A stretch of DNA of 33,091 bases, taken from a virus. Position numbers and translations under genes: made by a program. The notes under the pieces were generated by a model that was not told where the DNA came from, ran no database searches, and saw only the letters and a program-made list of their open reading frames with translations. The DNA is taken from UHGV virus genome UHGV-0073014; one strand, 5' to 3'. Shown here piece after piece: positions 1,633 through 32,400 of the stretch (positions are counted from its first letter, which is position 1; each line of letters opens with the position of its first letter).

Positions 1633-4600
1633 GCGTCGTATCCCCCCTGATCGCTGTAGTTACTCCTGGCTTTTGCCTTCAGCCTGCGTTCACGTTCATC
1701 AAGCTGGCGGGCCACCTCCCGCGCAATATCCTGCGCACTTTGTCCTGGCTGCGTCTGAATGATGATCTGCGTCGGTGCCTCAATCCGTTGAACGGGCGGC
1801 ACAGTGGCTGCACGACTCACCATCGCTTCGCCGCCTTTCGCGGGAAGTGCCAAAGGATGTAACGGTGGAAGCTCTGTAGGCGCGGCAGCAACGCCCATCA
1901 TTCCGGCAACAACCGCAGCCAGTGCAGCGGTATTTCTCCGGCTGGTCACGTTTGCCGGGCCGTTGACAATTTCCGGCCCGTTTTCACCGACGATGCCAAA
2001 CTGCCCGCGCGGGATATAGCCGCCGCTGTCATACATCCCCGCAAAGCCATATCCCCATGACGGAAAACCACCCGATGGCATCATCACTTTACCGTCTGCA
2101 TTCACCGTCGCAGGTTGCTGACGCGTCACGCTTTCCGGCAGTTTCGCCTTTGCAGCCTCTTTACTGACAATGCCGAGCTTCTCCAGCAACCAGGAAACAC
2201 CGGATTTCAGGGAGTCCAGCGGATGCATGACCATATTCAGCCCTTCCGCCAGTGCCTCCCCGAATCGTCGCCCCATTGCCGCTGCGCTCTGCAGTTCGGC
2301 AGAGGTCGACTTAACGGGCGTCAGCAGATCAGTAAACCAGCCCCACAGCGCCTGTACTTTGTCGCCAATCCACTGAAACACAGGCTTAAGTGGTTCGAAT
2401 GCAGCACTGATGGGACCTGCCGCCGCTTTGAATCCTTCCACCACGCCACCGAGAAATGCGGTGATGGGTTGCCAGTATTTCCAGACAACCAGCGCCACAC
2501 CCGCCAGTGCAGTAACCACAAGACCTATCGGACTGAGCAGAGCACCTAACAGACCAGATATGGCATACAGGGCAACGCGCAGCATCGCCAGCGGACCAGA
2601 TGCAAGCACACGAAGCACCGCGCCTGCGGCAGACAAAGTACCCCCCCCCCGGCGCCAGCCAGTCCACCGCGCAGTACCGCCAGAGGATTCATAAACATCA
2701 CAGCAACAGCACGTAAAGCGGATAATCCAGACCGCAATAGTGCAACCGGCGCACCTGCTACAGTTTTCAGGACATTTCCCGTCAGTGATGCCGTACGGCG
2801 CAAAGACGACAACGGCGCAGTAAGTAAACCCGCTGCGTTACCCGATGAAGCAAGCCCGCGTCGCAGCACTGCCAGTGGAGCGCCAGCCAGCCAGGACAAC
2901 GCGCTGCTGGTTCGTGTTACTGCTGCCGTAACGGAAGGGAACGTTTTTATGCCCAGCACAGAGAATCCCAGACGGATGACTGCCAGCGGCCCCAGCACTG
3001 CAGCCAGCGCCACAGCCAAGGTGCCGAGGCCTACGGTAACCGCAGCCACAATAGCGGCTACTTTCATCAGTGTGCCCGTCAGTTCCGGGTTAGCTTCGAC
3101 CCAGCGACGCAACGCTCCCGTAACGCTTTTCACCGTGTACAGAATATCCATCAGCGGCTGGCGCAGCGTTTCGCCCAGGCTGCTGAAGGTATTCTGCGCT
3201 CCGGTTTTAACCAGCAACCACTGAGCAGAAAGTGAGTCCTTGTTGATGTCGGATTCTTTCTGCATGGAGCCGAGCGCATCATTGCCCGCTGTCAGTTTTA
3301 GCTGGCGCTGTAGTTCCGGCAGGTTGTTTGCCAGTTTCGCCGCGTCATCGCCAAACTCTTTACCAAACAACATGGTCATGGCAGACAGACGCTTGTCCTG
3401 CGGCAGTGCGTTTACCTTCTCCAGCACGCGCTGGATGGTTCCCATCGCATCCTTCGTCATCTGCTTTTCAATCACTTCAGGATTGAGTTTCAGCAGATTC
3501 ATCCCTTCAAAGAAACTCTTGCTTTGCATGGTGGCAATGGACAATTCACGCACCATCGCGTTTGCTGCACTGGCTGCAACCTCTGGCGCAGCGCCCAGTG
3601 TCAGGAAGGTGGAACCCAGCGCCGCCGCTTTACGATAATCCAGACGGTCAGCCACACCGCCCAGACGTTGCATCACATCAATGATGTCTGCCCCTTTCGA
3701 CATGGCGTTATCATCCAGATAGTTCAGCGCATCACCGAGCTGTTCAATATTGCGGGTGGGGATTTTGTAGAGCTGGGCGATTTTCCCCAGACTTTCTGAC
3801 AGTTCATCCGCTGGCAGCTCAAAGGCTGTTGCCGCCTTTGCTGCCGTACTGGCGAAGGCCAGCAGGTCACGTTTCTGATCTTCCCAGCTGTCGTCAGGGT
3901 TTGCGACGTTCATGCGCGCACCACCTTCAACCAGTGCAGCGAAGTCCACCGCACCGTTTTCCATCGGCAACTGTTCGCTGGCAGCCTTGATGGCATCCTG
4001 CATTTCATAAAAACGTGCAGTGCGGTTGCCATTATCGTCACGCAGACCATTGACCTGCTTTGCCACACCTTTCATGGCATCTTCCATGCTGGTATAGCTT
4101 TTTACTGCCGCCATCACTGGCGCACCCATTGCCAGCCCTGCAGCCGTGGTGGTGGCTCCGGCACCTGCAATACGATCACGCACCTCCAGCGAACGGGCAT
4201 AACTGGCACGCGCTGCATTCATCCTGCGCTGAGCTTCCCCCAGTCGCTTCAGCCGCGCCTCCTGTTTCGAAAGTTCCTGGTTATAACGTGATGTTTCACG
4301 GGCTAAACGGGCAGTTGCTCCCGCATCGTCTTTCGCAGAAATTCCCGCCCGGTACAGTTCAGCACGCACAAGCGCCGTCTGCTGCTGCAGCTTTTTCTGG
4401 CGTTCTTCCAGGCGCTGAACAGCCAGCCGTTGACGGCCCAGAGCAACAACCTGACGTTGCGAAGGCGGCCCCATCGCTCCCAGTTCCTGACTGAGCAAAT
4501 TTGCACGCTGGCGGGCATAGTTCAGCCTGTCGCCTAATTTCTGATTTTCTGCCTGCAGCTTTCGGAAGCTGTCCAGACTGCTCCCGGCCTGATCAAGCTG

Positions 4601-30378: not shown

Positions 30379-30954
30379 GTGACCATGAATTTGGAGAAAG
30401 GCGGACGAGGCGCTATAGAGCGCATGGTAGAAGCTTATGGATTCAAAACTCGACAGGCGTTGTGCGATCATTTAGGAATCTCTAAAAGTACACTCGCCAC
30501 ACGCTACATGCGTGACTCATTCCCAGCAGAATGGGTAATCCAGTGCGCCCTTGAAACGGGCACCTCGCTTAATTGGCTCACAACCGGACATGGTTCAAAG
30601 CAAACTTCAGGTAATACAAATACTATGGAAGTTGCTAAATATGTATTATCTGATGGTGCCTTGCGTGAAGACGGTTTTTATATTTTTGATAAGGGGTTTC
30701 TACCCTCTACGTTTAAAAAACCTTTTGTCATCACAGATAACAATTCTGAATTTATTTGTGATAAAGAATTTGATGATATACGTGACGGTAAATGGGTAAT
30801 AAGTATTGATGGCGAAATAACAATCCGCGACATTACTCGTTTACCCGGTGGAAGAATCTTCGTTGAAGGTGGAAACAGAGCCTTCGAGTGCAAGATAGAA
30901 GATGTTGAAATAATTGGGAAAATTATAAGTTTAACAATTAAGTACGTTAGGTAA
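30379..30954 (+). CDS. cI: CI-like immunity repressor (186 CI family)
   Basis: 191 aa with N-terminal HTH; EAYGF and CALETG..L.WL.TG.G motifs recalled from 186 CI. Confidence 0.8.
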   Translation: MTMNLEKGGRGAIERMVEAYGFKTRQALCDHLGISKSTLATRYMRDSFPAEWVIQCALETGTSLNWLTTGHGSKQTSGNTNTMEVAKYVLSDGALREDGFYIFDKGFLPSTFKKPFVITDNNSEFICDKEFDDIRDGKWVISIDGEITIRDITRLPGGRIFVEGGNRAFECKIEDVEIIGKIISLTIKYVR

Positions 30955-30969
30955 TACCGGGAGGAAACT

Positions 30970-31161
30970 ATGCTTGGTAAGGTATTTTTTGTGGTTTTAT
31001 CATGCTCTTTGTTATTAAACCCACTAACTACCTATGCTAAAAATTATCCTTGTTCTGGGAAAAAGGGAGGTGTCTCTCACTGTACCTCCGATGGAAAGTT
31101 CGTTTGCAATGATGGAACTATTAGTAAATCAAAAAAAATCTGTACTAAAAACTCGCGATAA
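30970..31161 (+). CDS. small secreted Cys-rich protein (cargo between cI and int)
   Basis: 63 aa; signal peptide [23 protein letters not shown]; four Cys in the mature part; SD GGGAGG upstream; AT-rich. Confidence 0.5.
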
Positions 31162-31347
31162 ATTTTGCTTTTATATCTGCGCCTAATATAACAATGAGCC
31201 GCAGGCTAACCGCAAAAGTCACATACTCACATAGCAAAAAATAGCCAACTTCATTATGGCTTCAGTGAGATGTATGGTCGCAGGATTTCATACATTGACA
31301 CTGGTTATACATACAGTAAAAATGCTCTCTATTGGAGGGCATTTTTT

Positions 31348-32400
31348 ATGGCAGTACGAAAACTCACCACAGGAAAATGGCTTTGCGAATGTTACCCCGC
31401 CGGACGTAGTGGACGCCGTGTGCGTAAACAATTCGCCACCAAAGGCGAAGCTCTGGCTTTTGAGCGTCACACGATGGAAGAAACCGAAGCAAAGCCCTGG
31501 CTGGGCGAATCAGTGGATCGTCGGACATTGAAAGACGTGGTTGAGCTATGGTTCAAACTACATGGTAAATCTCTAACCGCTGGGCAGCATGTCTATGACA
31601 AATTGCTGTTGATGGTTGATGCTCTGGGCAATCCTCTTGCAACCGATCTCACCTCTAAAATGTTTGCCCACTATCGAGATAAACGCCTGACAGGCGAGAT
31701 CTACTTCAGCGAGAAATGGAAGAAAGGAGCAAGCCCGGTCACCATTAACCTGGAGCAAAGCTATCTAAGTAGTGTTTTTAGCGAACTATCCCGTCTGGGC
31801 GAATGGTCGTATCCGAACCCACTGGAGAACATGCGAAAATTCACCATCGCAGAAAAAGAGATGGCATGGCTTACCCATGAGCAGATTGTTGAATTGCTGG
31901 CTGATTGCAAACGTCAGGACCCAATTCTGGCACTGGTAGTTAAGATATGCTTAAGCACAGGCGCACGCTGGCGTGAAGCCGTAAATCTTACCCGCTCACA
32001 GGTGACCAAATACCGAATTACCTTTGTCAGAACGAAGGGGAAGAAAAACAGAAGCATCCCTATCAGTAAAGAGCTTTACGAAGAGATCATGGCGCTTGAT
32101 GGGTTCAATTTCTTCACAGACTGCTATTTTCAATTTTTATCCGTGATGGAAAAAACGTCTATCGTGCTCCCTCGCGGTCAACTGACACACGTTCTGCGCC
32201 ATACGTTTGCGGCGCACTTCATGATGTCGGGTGGAAACATTCTGGCCTTACAAAAAATTCTTGGACACCACGATATAAAAATGACTATGCGTTACGCACA
32301 TCTGGCACCGGATCATCTGGAAACGGCGCTCCGTTTCAATCCTCTGGCAACGCTGCCAAATGGCGACAAAGTGGCGGCAGCGGTTGGCATTACCCCGTAA
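31348..32400 (+). CDS. int: tyrosine integrase
   Basis: C-terminal catalytic signature R...HxLRHT...Y (HVLRHTFAAHF, MRYAHL); start at MAVRKLTTGKW preceded by GGAGGG. Confidence 0.9.
   Translation: MAVRKLTTGKWLCECYPAGRSGRRVRKQFATKGEALAFERHTMEETEAKPWLGESVDRRTLKDVVELWFKLHGKSLTAGQHVYDKLLLMVDALGNPLATDLTSKMFAHYRDKRLTGEIYFSEKWKKGASPVTINLEQSYLSSVFSELSRLGEWSYPNPLENMRKFTIAEKEMAWLTHEQIVELLADCKRQDPILALVVKICLSTGARWREAVNLTRSQVTKYRITFVRTKGKKNRSIPISKELYEEIMALDGFNFFTDCYFQFLSVMEKTSIVLPRGQLTHVLRHTFAAHFMMSGGNILALQKILGHHDIKMTMRYAHLAPDHLETALRFNPLATLPNGDKVAAAVGITP

What the first reader, a model, noticed from the sequence alone, without database searches (positions are those of the whole stretch)
30970..31161. Small secreted cysteine-rich peptide gene between the repressor and integrase genes
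A 63 aa ORF with a good SD and a clear signal peptide (predicted cleavage after TYA), followed by a 40 aa Lys-rich mature peptide with four cysteines. It is AT-rich and sits in the lysogenic operon between cI and int, so it would be expressed from the prophage. It could be a lysogenic-conversion factor such as a small periplasmic or exclusion peptide.
Basis: seen in the sequence. Interest (0 to 1): 0.4.

Follow-up and report, generated by a model that had tools for sequence, protein, structure and literature searches.

The report
Prophage YdcA-family secreted mini-protein gene
A real, conserved small gene directly behind the repressor gene of an E. coli 186-like prophage encodes a 40-residue, positively charged, probably disulfide-bonded periplasmic protein of the uncharacterised YdcA family; relatives are fused to secreted DNases and built into a type IV secretion machine, which hints that it acts on DNA traffic at the cell envelope.

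Summary
Window 30970-31161 (+) is a 63-aa ORF with a strong Shine-Dalgarno sequence, a Sec-type signal peptide and a 40-aa basic four-Cys mature part. It lies 15 nt after cI and 186 nt before int of a 186-like prophage.

It is not an orphan. It passes the curated NCBIfam cutoff for the YdcA family (PF27300), and RefSeq already lists it as WP_001321204.1. It is under purifying selection (dN/dS 0.11-0.19) and occurs in 702 of 5426 complete E. coli genomes. Those genomes also carry the core chromosomal paralog ydcA (57% identical).

Phage 186 has nothing between cI and int. Sibling prophages carry a KAP-NTPase defence candidate (PADLOC PDC-S20) there. Haemophilus phage HP2 has an unannotated homolog in the same slot, and Vibrio phage K139 has the unrelated periplasmic exclusion protein Glo.

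Three leads on function:
- The domain is fused or adjacent to three unrelated secreted-nuclease families.
- It is homologous to the lobes of Legionella Dot/Icm subunit Dis2.
- It travels on phages and small mobilizable plasmids.

Function is unproven. My best guess is a periplasmic binder of DNA, or of DNA-translocating envelope machines, that gives exclusion-type lysogenic conversion.

The parts
30385..30954 (+). cI immunity repressor (186 type), first gene of the lysogenic operon
   Evidence: Phage_CI_repr 2.7e-33 and Phage_CI_C 2e-28. RefSeq names it 'phage repressor protein CI'. The C-terminal half is AT-rich (GC 0.34) like the ORF.
30959..30964 (+). Shine-Dalgarno sequence GGGAGG of the small ORF, 5 nt before its ATG and 4 nt after the cI stop codon
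   Evidence: Read directly from the sequence.
30970..31038 (+). Signal peptide (residues 1-23, predicted SPase I cleavage after T-Y-A)
   Evidence: Hydropathy and the -3/-1 rule. Position -1 Ala is at least 90% conserved, while the rest of the signal peptide diverges freely. 158 of 164 family members have the same layout. There is no lipobox.
31039..31161 (+). Mature 40-aa YdcA-family domain (C-x9-C-x7-C-x11-C; [12 protein letters not shown]...[17 protein letters not shown]) plus stop codon
   Evidence: NF007463 116 bits against cutoff 93, and phrog_6000. Invariant and near-invariant residues are listed. AF2 core pLDDT is 84-92, with a beta-hairpin. Purifying selection. Homology to the Dis2 lobes.
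31139..31259 (+). Segment specific to the 'ydcA-only' configuration. In sibling prophage E23 a 1.35-kb KAP-NTPase gene takes its place.
   Evidence: blastn junctions: homology to L010 ends at window 31138 and resumes at 31260. Annotation of E23, TO6 and TUM9803.
31295..31323 (+). Sigma-70 promoter-like site (TTGACA-17-AAAAAT) upstream of int
   Evidence: Consensus scan, 10 of 12 matches. The total number of sites in the region does not exceed the shuffle expectation, so this is only a lead.
31318..31346 (+). 13-bp hairpin plus U-run immediately before the int ATG. It pairs the int Shine-Dalgarno sequence (GGAGGG 31334-31339), so it is a terminator-like or translational-masking element and a likely 3' boundary of the cI-ORF transcript.
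   Evidence: RNA fold of 31290-31365: -19.1 kcal/mol, z -3.65, 0 of 200 shuffles fold as well. It belongs to the int module shared with the KAP-carrying prophages.
31348..32400 (+). Tyrosine integrase
   Evidence: Int_N 3.2e-32 and Phage_integrase 7.2e-22. RefSeq names it 'phage integrase'.

Best explanation
The ORF is a genuine gene for a YdcA-family (PF27300) mini-protein.

Proposed chain of events:
1. It is transcribed with cI from the prophage's lysogenic promoter and translated from its own strong Shine-Dalgarno sequence.
2. It is exported by Sec and cleaved after residue 23.
3. In the periplasm it folds into a roughly 4.3-kDa basic beta-hairpin knot, probably held by two disulfides.

It is accessory cargo in the variable cI-int slot of 186/HP1-type phages, and a diverged second copy of the host's own core ydcA gene.

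Proposed mechanism (inferred, not shown): the knot is a small binding module for DNA and/or for envelope machines that move DNA. A stand-alone copy made by the lysogen then interferes with foreign DNA entering through the envelope. That would be superinfection-exclusion-type lysogenic conversion, possibly also affecting conjugative or transforming DNA.

My graded confidence by step:
- real, selected gene of the YdcA family: 0.95
- exported periplasmic disulfide protein: 0.85
- co-expressed with cI in lysogens: 0.7
- ligand is DNA or DNA-translocating machinery: about 0.35
- net effect is exclusion of incoming DNA: about 0.25-0.3

The overall figure of 0.4 is for the explanation as a whole, mechanism included.
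For: Identity and selection:
- NF007463 above the curated cutoff, and phrog_6000.
- PF27300 is recorded on the 97%-identical cluster representative.
- dN/dS is 0.11-0.19 with saturated synonymous sites.
- Signal peptides diverge while the mature core is nearly invariant across Alpha-, Beta- and Gammaproteobacteria.

Export: family-wide signal-peptide layout. Homolog Dis2 is a periplasmic, disulfide-pinned protein in a solved structure (PMC8486379).

Operon position:
- 15 nt after cI, with no + strand terminator in between.
- A strong hairpin follows before int.
- The HP2 homolog's ATG overlaps the cI stop codon.
- CI lies immediately upstream in 6 of 78 species loci and Int downstream in 5 of 76.

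Cargo slot:
- Empty in phage 186.
- KAP NTPase = PADLOC PDC-S20, E 1e-173, in sibling prophages.
- The periplasmic exclusion protein Glo occupies the same slot in K139.
- A published cI-int defence hotspot exists in Vibrio phages (PMC9122126).

Link to DNA:
- The domain is fused after the signal peptide to SNase, Endonuclease_NS (three proteins) and PLD-type nuclease.
- SNase genes are adjacent in 5 of 80 species loci. One further locus has an Endonuclease_NS fusion, and one has a PLD nuclease 3 kb away.
- HP2 places a secreted OB-fold (tRNA_anti-like) gene next to it.
- It is homologous to Dis2 of a T4SS.
- It is one of five genes, right after 'TraD', on a 3.9-kb MOBQ plasmid.
- The basic charge of the core is conserved: mean +3.4, and 87% of cores are at least +2.
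- Mobile elements are known to place nucleases in the periplasm to block incoming DNA (PMC12378983).
Against: - There is no direct evidence of transcription, export, DNA binding or any phenotype.
- Nuclease fusions are a minority (5 of the 150 representatives listed). Accessory domains of secreted nucleases can be anchors rather than DNA binders.
- In the Dot/Icm structure Dis2 contacts proteins (DotK, DotC), not DNA. Its deletion has only subtle effects (PMC12716638).
- E. coli already carries core ydcA in 5416 of 5426 genomes, so it is unclear why a second copy would confer exclusion.
- There is no PADLOC model for it.
- Injected phage DNA is normally shielded from the periplasm.
- The only phenotype reported for chromosomal ydcA concerns acid and organic-acid stress, not phage (PMC7642389).
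Confidence: 0.4

Rival explanations
1. Envelope or acid-stress fitness factor. The peptide does the same still-unknown job as chromosomal YdcA in the periplasm, for example binding peptidoglycan, LPS or the outer-membrane inner leaflet. The prophage simply adds a constitutively expressed extra dose that helps the lysogen under acid or organic-acid or other envelope stress. No exclusion is involved.
For: - K-12 ydcA is reported as acid-induced and YdcI-controlled, and its deletion sensitises E. coli W to 3-hydroxypropionate (PMC7642389).
- The ORF is 57% identical to YdcA, with the same core.
- The conserved positive charge fits any polyanion, including LPS or peptidoglycan-associated ligands.
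- Dis2 sits against the outer membrane and touches the OmpA-like DotK.
- A fusion to a T6SS VasL/EvfB domain also suggests an envelope-docking role.
Against: - It does not explain the repeated fusion and adjacency to three nuclease families.
- It does not explain why small mobilizable plasmids and several unrelated temperate phage lineages carry the gene.
- The ORF scores as a separate NCBIfam equivalog from K-12 YdcA: 68 bits against a cutoff of 118 for NF007462.
Confidence: 0.22
2. Periplasmic enzyme inhibitor. The knot blocks a hydrolase in the periplasm, such as a nuclease, a protease or a phage tail lysozyme, in the manner of T4 Spackle.
For: - Small disulfide knots are typical inhibitor scaffolds.
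- There is weak resemblance to plant Pin-II proteinase-inhibitor repeats (CAGTKG-C..SDDGTFVC..C; E 0.06-1) and to the CNDG loop of c-type lysozyme (E 0.36-0.57).
- Adjacency to SNase genes could reflect a nuclease-inhibitor pair.
Against: - None of the Pin-II or lysozyme similarities is significant, and the 8-Cys Pin-II pattern is absent.
- A covalent fusion of an inhibitor to three different nuclease families is unlikely.
- No hydrolase gene lies next to the ORF in this prophage.
Confidence: 0.1
3. Metal-binding peptide. The four Cys and the conserved His coordinate Zn or Cu in the periplasm.
For: The residues C28, H37, C38, C46 and C58 are conserved.
Against: - The homologous Dis2 lobes show disulfide density, not metal (PMC8486379).
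- The periplasm is oxidising.
- The second Dis2 lobe replaces H-C with T-Y.
- No metal-homeostasis genes recur in the neighbourhood.
Confidence: 0.04
4. Hitch-hiking passenger. It is a real gene linked to this cI allele, but it has no role in the lysogen's or the phage's fitness.
For: - It is absent from phage 186.
- It shares the AT-rich module with the cI C-terminal half.
- It is dispensable in prophages that carry only the KAP gene.
Against: - Strong purifying selection.
- It is retained directly after cI in Escherichia, Yersinia and Pasteurellaceae phages.
- It has been acquired independently at other sites in Moraxella and Acinetobacter phages.
Confidence: 0.05

Closest known systems
E. 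coli K-12 YdcA (b1419; NCBIfam PRK10040, Pfam PF27300), an uncharacterised periplasmic protein
   Same: Same family and architecture: a signal peptide plus a roughly 35-aa PCSG-KGG-SHC...[14 protein letters not shown] core. It is 57% identical overall. RefSeq names the window protein 'YdcA family protein'.
   Different: The window gene is a separate paralog. It passes the NF007463 cutoff but fails NF007462, with 68 bits against a cutoff of 118. It is prophage-borne and cI-linked, whereas ydcA is chromosomal (next to rydC and hokB) and core in 5416 of 5426 genomes. The function of YdcA itself is unknown.
[quoted passage not shown]
   Same: The domains are homologous:
- profile E 3.7e-4 and single-sequence E 2.2e-4 against the PDB
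- Foldseek top hit with both models (probability 0.93 and 0.84, query-normalised TM up to 0.61)
- a Dis2-like protein carries a precomputed PF27300 annotation
- reciprocal hhalign E 1.9e-4

Dis2 is periplasmic, disulfide-pinned and has no other structural relatives.
   Different: Dis2 has two lobes and five disulfides, and is a stoichiometric part of a T4SS. The window protein is a single lobe with four Cys, and the prophage has no T4SS. The Dis2 authors regard Dis2 as Legionellales-specific. The Dis2-YdcA link rests on my searches. A full-text search for the terms PF27300, 'YdcA family protein', PRK10040 and WP_001321204 found no functional work on this family.
Glo of Vibrio phage K139 (periplasmic protein involved in phage exclusion)
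   Same: Same slot and logic: a signal-peptide protein encoded between cI and int in the PL lysogenic operon of a P2-related phage.
   Different: There is no sequence relationship (hhalign probability 1.7%, signal peptide only). Glo is 137 aa and not Cys-rich. It is an analogue, not a relative.
KAP-family P-loop NTPase cargo (PADLOC candidate system PDC-S20; related to PifA and QatA) in sibling 186-like prophages
   Same: It occupies the same cI-int slot, alone or directly after a ydcA-like gene.
   Different: It is a cytoplasmic 443-505-aa ATPase and is unrelated in sequence. The window lacks it.
Periplasmic DNases carried by mobile elements that block incoming DNA (ICE IdeA and SxnA of Vibrio cholerae, prophage Dns of Campylobacter jejuni)
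   Same: They are mobile-element-encoded, exported to the periplasm and act on incoming DNA (PMC12378983). Members of the YdcA family are fused to the same kinds of secreted nuclease.
   Different: The window protein has no catalytic domain. At most it would bind, not cut.

Membership tests
YdcA family (NCBIfam PRK10040.1-2, NF007463) | Whole-protein HMM score above the curated cutoff | tested here: met
   116.1 bits against a cutoff of 93, E 4.2e-34, covering profile positions 1-58 of 58.
YdcA family (Pfam PF27300) | Match to the Pfam model | tested here: met
   The local Pfam copy lacks PF27300 (no hit). PF27300.1 is precomputed for the 97%-identical cluster representative P0001 and for nearly all homologs. 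The evidence is therefore indirect.
YdcA family | Signal peptide followed by the C-x9-C-x7-C-x11-C core with the KGG and CNDG motifs | tested here: met
   Alignments A1 and A2, rule-based signal-peptide analysis.
Ortholog of K-12 YdcA (NCBIfam PRK10040.1-1, NF007462 equivalog) | Score above the equivalog cutoff | tested here: not met
   68 bits against a cutoff of 118, 57% identity. It is a paralog, not the ortholog.
Dis2 (Dot/Icm T4SS outer-membrane-cap subunit) | Homologous Cys-rich lobe | tested here: met
   hmmsearch E 3.7e-4, phmmer E 2.2e-4, Foldseek rank 1 twice, PF27300 on a Dis2-like protein, hhalign E 1.9e-4.
Dis2 (Dot/Icm T4SS outer-membrane-cap subunit) | Two lobes pinned by five disulfides, assembled in a T4SS | tested here: not met
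   The window protein is a single lobe with four Cys. The window holds only P2/186-type phage genes and no T4SS genes.
Glo-type periplasmic exclusion protein (K139) | Encoded between cI and int in the lysogenic operon, with a signal peptide | tested here: met
   Searches compared with the K139 annotation.
Glo-type periplasmic exclusion protein (K139) | Sequence homology to Glo | tested here: not met
   hhalign probability 1.7%; only the signal peptides align.
Glo-type periplasmic exclusion protein (K139) | Exclusion phenotype | not testable with these tools
   This needs plaque assays on a deletion or over-expression strain.
Known anti-phage defence systems (PADLOC-DB 2.0) | Match to any defence-protein HMM | tested here: not met
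   0 families for the window ORF and for the HP2 homolog. The neighbouring-slot KAP NTPases hit PDC-S20.
Phage moron (accessory cargo gene) | Absent from close relatives and deviant in base composition | tested here: met
   Phage 186 has cI and int abutting. ORF GC is 0.35 against 0.52 for the window, although the low-GC tract also covers the cI C-terminal half.
Phage moron (accessory cargo gene) | Own promoter and terminator | tested here: inconclusive
   No promoter-like site lies between cI and the ORF. The hairpin at 31318-31346 could terminate the transcript, but it belongs to the int module.
Bacterial lipoprotein | Lipobox L-x-x-C at the end of the signal peptide | tested here: not met
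   No lipobox in the window protein. Only 4 family members have one.
Pin-II (potato type II) proteinase inhibitor repeat | Significant sequence match and the 8-Cys pattern | tested here: not met
   E 0.06-1 only, and the window domain has four Cys.

The most novel reading that the evidence does not exclude
The YdcA/PF27300 knot is an unrecognised extracytoplasmic module, only about 31 residues from first to last Cys, that binds DNA or docks onto DNA-conducting envelope machines. Secreted nucleases use it as a substrate-binding or targeting domain, and the Dot/Icm T4SS carries two copies of it as Dis2. Phages and plasmids deploy stand-alone copies, co-expressed with the repressor, to intercept or block incoming phage, conjugative or transforming DNA in the periplasm. 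This would give the E. coli y-gene ydcA and Legionella Dis2 a common function.
Probability: 0.2. Interest if true: 0.75.

Novelty: new member of a known kind. Interest (0 to 1): 0.42.

Why it matters
As a sequence this is ordinary. It is a catalogued member of a named family, present in about 13% of complete E. coli genomes.

Its value is as an entry point to an uncharacterised family that includes a core E. coli K-12 y-gene. The work here gives that family three testable leads:
- repeated fusion and adjacency to three classes of secreted nuclease
- homology to Dis2, a T4SS subunit whose authors found no relatives and no function
- a conserved place directly behind the immunity repressor in P2/186/HP1-type phages of three genera, in a slot that otherwise holds defence genes

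If the peptide excludes foreign DNA, it would be one of the smallest lysogenic-conversion or defence effectors known. It would also act in the periplasm, a compartment that current defence catalogues largely ignore. The experiments are easy because laboratory strains (ATCC 8739, E. coli B and the BL21 derivative C43(DE3)) already carry it.

Tried and rejected
- Local Pfam-A scan of the ORF: no real hit, because PF27300 is newer than the local copy.
- The AFDB50 Foldseek library was unavailable.
- PADLOC: no defence model matches the ORF or its HP2 homolog.
- Homology to K139 Glo: rejected.
- Pin-II proteinase-inhibitor and c-type lysozyme 'CNDG' resemblances: not significant, kept only as a weak rival.
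- Lipoprotein: no lipobox; C12 lies too early and is not conserved.
- Known RNA element in the cI-int region: none in Rfam.
- Megablast against the phage collection found only the int-proximal 110 bp, in Klebsiella phages. tblastn was needed to find the phage homologs.
- Literature: no paper on the function of YdcA, of WP_001321204 or of PF27300. The Nesper 1999 K139 paper is not held, so the role of Glo is cited from the GenBank annotation and from PMC4870250.
- The neighbour census rests on a crude ORF caller and only the nearest ORF on each side, so the counts are lower bounds.
- Disulfide geometry could not be checked, because model coordinates are not exposed.

Full report
**1. Observation**

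Window 30970..31161 (+) is a 63-aa ATG-initiated [66 protein letters not shown]. GGGAGG lies at 30959-30964, 5 nt upstream of the ATG and 4 nt after the cI stop codon. The N-terminus has a Lys, a hydrophobic core (Kyte-Doolittle 9-mer up to 2.7) and T-Y-A at -3..-1. The 40-aa remainder has 9 K/R, 2 D/E, 4 Cys and pI 9.6.

ORF GC is 0.349 against 0.516 for the window. The AT-rich tract spans about 30600-31300 and includes the C-terminal half of cI.

The upstream gene is a 186-type CI repressor and the downstream gene is a tyrosine integrase. cII and an apl-like gene are transcribed divergently. The window is a near-complete P2/186-type prophage next to the host gene rcdA. It is identical over 30900-31350 to E. 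coli ATCC 8739 and many other chromosomes.

**2. It is a real gene of a known, uncharacterised family**

- The ORF scores 116 bits against NCBIfam NF007463 (PRK10040.1-2, cutoff 93) and E 5e-34 against phrog_6000. Both are labelled function unknown.
- RefSeq annotates it as WP_001321204.1, 'hypothetical protein' or 'YdcA family protein'.
- Homologs carry the newer Pfam entry PF27300.
- An exhaustive profile search finds 444 clusters at 50% identity. Matching loci come from Alpha-, Beta- and Gammaproteobacteria.
- In alignments the signal peptides diverge freely. Ala at -1 and the core [12 protein letters not shown]...[17 protein letters not shown] are invariant or nearly so.
- 158 of 164 members show an h-region plus a -3/-1 site 3-4 residues before the first Cys, and lipoboxes are rare.
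- Across 71 species-level core sequences, synonymous sites are saturated (pS about 0.86) while pN is 0.18. Unsaturated pairs give dN/dS of 0.11-0.19.
- 702 of 5426 complete E. coli genomes carry this DNA segment.
- The chromosomal paralog ydcA (57% identical) is core, present in 5416 of 5426 genomes. The prophage gene is therefore a second, diverged copy, and it fails the K-12 YdcA equivalog cutoff.

**3. Anatomy of the slot**

In phage 186 the cI stop and the int start abut, with nothing between them. In E. coli 186-like prophages the slot is variable:
- cI-ydcA-int (this window; 590 genomes with contiguous coverage)
- cI-KAP NTPase-int (TUM9803)
- cI-ydcA-KAP NTPase-int (TO6 and E23)
- cI, a second CI-like gene, then a KAP NTPase (ECO8855)

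Homology to E23 stops at window 31138 and resumes at 31260, so a 1.35-kb KAP gene replaces 121 bp of the window. The KAP proteins match PADLOC candidate system PDC-S20 (E 1e-173) and, more distantly, PifA and QatA.

The same position is used in other genera. Haemophilus phage HP2 has an unannotated 60-aa homolog whose ATG overlaps the cI stop codon, followed by a secreted OB-fold (tRNA_anti-like) protein and then int. Yersinia and Pasteurellaceae prophages also have cI-ydcA-like arrangements: CI lies upstream in 6 of 78 species loci and Int downstream in 5 of 76.

Vibrio phage K139 has cI-orf2-glo-int in its PL operon, with Glo annotated as a periplasmic protein involved in phage exclusion (also PMC4870250). 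Glo is unrelated in sequence. Rousset et al. describe a defence hotspot between cI and int in K139-like Vibrio phages (PMC9122126). A 2026 survey places 8% of P2 defence systems between integrase and primase (PMC13586616).

Elsewhere the gene sits among tail genes, in Moraxella Mcat phages and in Acinetobacter Ab11510-phi. It also occurs on plasmids (58 records). One is a five-gene 3.9-kb MOBQ plasmid where it follows 'TraD'.

**4. Expression signals**

The scan found no promoter-like or terminator-like site on the + strand between cI and the ORF. Co-transcription from the lysogenic promoter is therefore the simplest reading, but it is inferred.

Just before int, window 31318-31346 forms a 13-bp hairpin followed by a U-run. 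The fold of 31290-31365 gives -19.1 kcal/mol, z -3.65, with 0 of 200 shuffles as stable. The hairpin pairs the int Shine-Dalgarno sequence. A promoter-like TTGACA-17-AAAAAT at 31295-31323 overlaps its 5' arm. This suggests the maintenance transcript effectively ends, or is translationally silent, after the small ORF, and that int has separate control. That is speculation. Rfam finds no known RNA family here.

**5. Clues to mechanism**

(b) Dis2. These results link the domain to chain AN of PDB 7MUC/7MUD, which is Dis2 (Lpg0823) of the Legionella Dot/Icm outer-membrane cap:
- the family profile (E 3.7e-4) and the mature peptide alone (E 2.2e-4) both hit it
- Foldseek ranks it first with both models: probability 0.93 and 0.84, query-normalised TM up to 0.61, and the next hits at probability 0.13 or below
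- a Dis2-like protein carries a precomputed PF27300 annotation
- reciprocal hhalign gives E 1.9e-4
- both Dis2 lobes show the GGV...C/Y...G-x-(L/V)-V-C-N-(D/N)-G-x-x-S motif

(c) Nucleases. Long family members place the domain right after the signal peptide of three unrelated secreted-nuclease families:
- SNase (P0112, 4.8e-24)
- Endonuclease_NS (P0161, P0186 and P0190, down to 8e-33)
- PLD-like nuclease (P0183, 5e-19)

Among 80 species loci, SNase genes lie next to a stand-alone or near-stand-alone family gene in five (L033, L035, L080, L085, L087). One locus (L046) has an Endonuclease_NS fusion plus a second copy, and a PLD nuclease lies 3 kb away in L067. Other neighbours include a REase/helicase (three loci), Exo_endo_phos, RNase_T, RdgC, Mu Gam and another tRNA_anti-like OB-fold.

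(d) Other architectures. There are tandem repeats of the domain (P0065 with three copies, P0068 and P0073 with two). There is a fusion to a T6SS VasL/EvfB domain. A second small motif, C-x-G-P-(K/R)-G-G-x-(Y/F), occurs in 13 of 149 representatives and is borderline for PBCV_basic_adap.

(e) Charge. The 30-31-residue core has a mean net charge of +3.4, and 87% of cores are at least +2.

**6. Interpretation**

Shown here:
- a selected, exported-type, Cys-knot mini-protein gene of the YdcA family
- cargo in a variable slot directly behind cI
- a family associated with mobile elements, secreted nucleases and a T4SS

Inferred:
- co-expression with cI
- periplasmic location
- two disulfides

Hypothesised: the knot binds DNA or DNA-conducting envelope machinery, and as a stand-alone lysogen product it hinders entry of foreign DNA. 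Mobile elements are known to protect themselves by exporting nucleases to the periplasm (PMC12378983). Glo is a functional precedent for a periplasmic exclusion protein in this very slot.

Against the hypothesis:
- there are no phenotype data
- Dis2 touches proteins, not DNA
- nuclease accessory domains may be anchors
- a core host paralog already exists
- the only published ydcA phenotype concerns acid and 3-hydroxypropionate stress (PMC7642389)

The main rival is therefore an envelope or acid-stress fitness role through binding of an envelope polyanion. Inhibitor, metal-binding and passenger readings rank lower.

**7. Comparison and novelty**

The protein is a member of the YdcA family: the tested features are met, but it is a paralog of K-12 YdcA rather than its ortholog. 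It shares a homologous domain with Dis2 but is not a Dis2 equivalent, being single-lobed with no T4SS. It is a positional and topological analogue of Glo but not a homolog. It is not in PADLOC.

The sequence is already catalogued, so the finding itself is a new member of a known kind. What appears new is the Dis2-YdcA link, the nuclease associations, the conserved cI-linked position across genera, and the missing annotation in HP2. A full-text search for the terms PF27300, 'YdcA family protein', PRK10040 and WP_001321204 found no functional work on this family.

**8. Verdict**

Interest is moderate at 0.42. The gene is ordinary as a sequence, but it offers a tractable route to the function of an E. 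coli y-gene family and of Dis2, with laboratory strains that already carry it.

Noticed in passing
window 31290-31365: There is a strong hairpin (13-bp stem at 31318-31346, z -3.65) with a U-run immediately before the int ATG. It sequesters the int Shine-Dalgarno sequence. A promoter-like TTGACA-17-AAAAAT (31295-31323) overlaps its 5' arm. This may uncouple int expression from the cI maintenance transcript.
   Followed up: partly
L008:1153-2481, L010:3255-4583, L007:4070-5584 (E. coli TUM9803, E23, ECO8855): The same cI-int slot in sibling 186-like prophages carries KAP-family P-loop NTPases that match PADLOC candidate defence system PDC-S20 (E 1e-173) and, distantly, PifA and QatA. The slot is therefore a defence-cargo hotspot in E. 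coli 186-like phages too.
   Followed up: partly
L003:2920-3102 (Haemophilus phage HP2, NC_003315 positions about 2486-2668, minus strand): An unannotated 60-aa YdcA-family ORF has its ATG overlapping the cI stop codon. The next gene, orf1(S), is a secreted tRNA_anti-like OB-fold protein.
   Followed up: yes
PDB 7MUC/7MUD chain AN (Dis2, Lpg0823); P0228, P0229: Legionella Dot/Icm subunit Dis2, published as having no homologs outside Legionellales and no structural relatives, appears to be a tandem duplication of the YdcA/PF27300 domain.
   Followed up: yes
L007:3121-4041 (E. coli ECO8855): A second, 307-aa CI-like protein with two Phage_CI_repr HTH stretches is encoded directly after the normal cI and before a KAP NTPase. 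It may be a regulator or sensor of the cargo.
   Followed up: no
P0066, P0072, P0074, P0119 and others (family representatives): A recurrent second mini-motif, C-x-G-P-(K/R)-G-G-x-(Y/F)-C...G-x-K-x-Y, sits at the C-terminus of 100-160-aa family members (13 of 149 representatives). It gives a borderline match to PBCV_basic_adap (PF08789).
   Followed up: partly
L093:728-904 (Acinetobacter pittii plasmid pApiMCR53a, 3.9 kb): A YdcA-family gene is one of only five genes on a MOBQ mobilizable plasmid, directly downstream of 'conjugal transfer protein TraD'. UniRef labels the exact window protein 'Conjugal transfer protein'.
   Followed up: partly
window 30600-31300: The low-GC tract (0.33-0.37) starts inside cI, so the C-terminal (oligomerisation) half of CI and the small ORF look like one acquired module. 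By contrast, the int module starts at about 31260-31289 and recombines with other cI alleles.
   Followed up: partly
L033, L035, L040 (Brucella spp.): The YdcA-like gene lies directly downstream of a roughly 1585-aa REase_MTES_1575 / AAA_11 / AAA_12 / DUF3320 helicase-nuclease. In L033 and L035 it also lies upstream of an SNase-like sequence.
   Followed up: no
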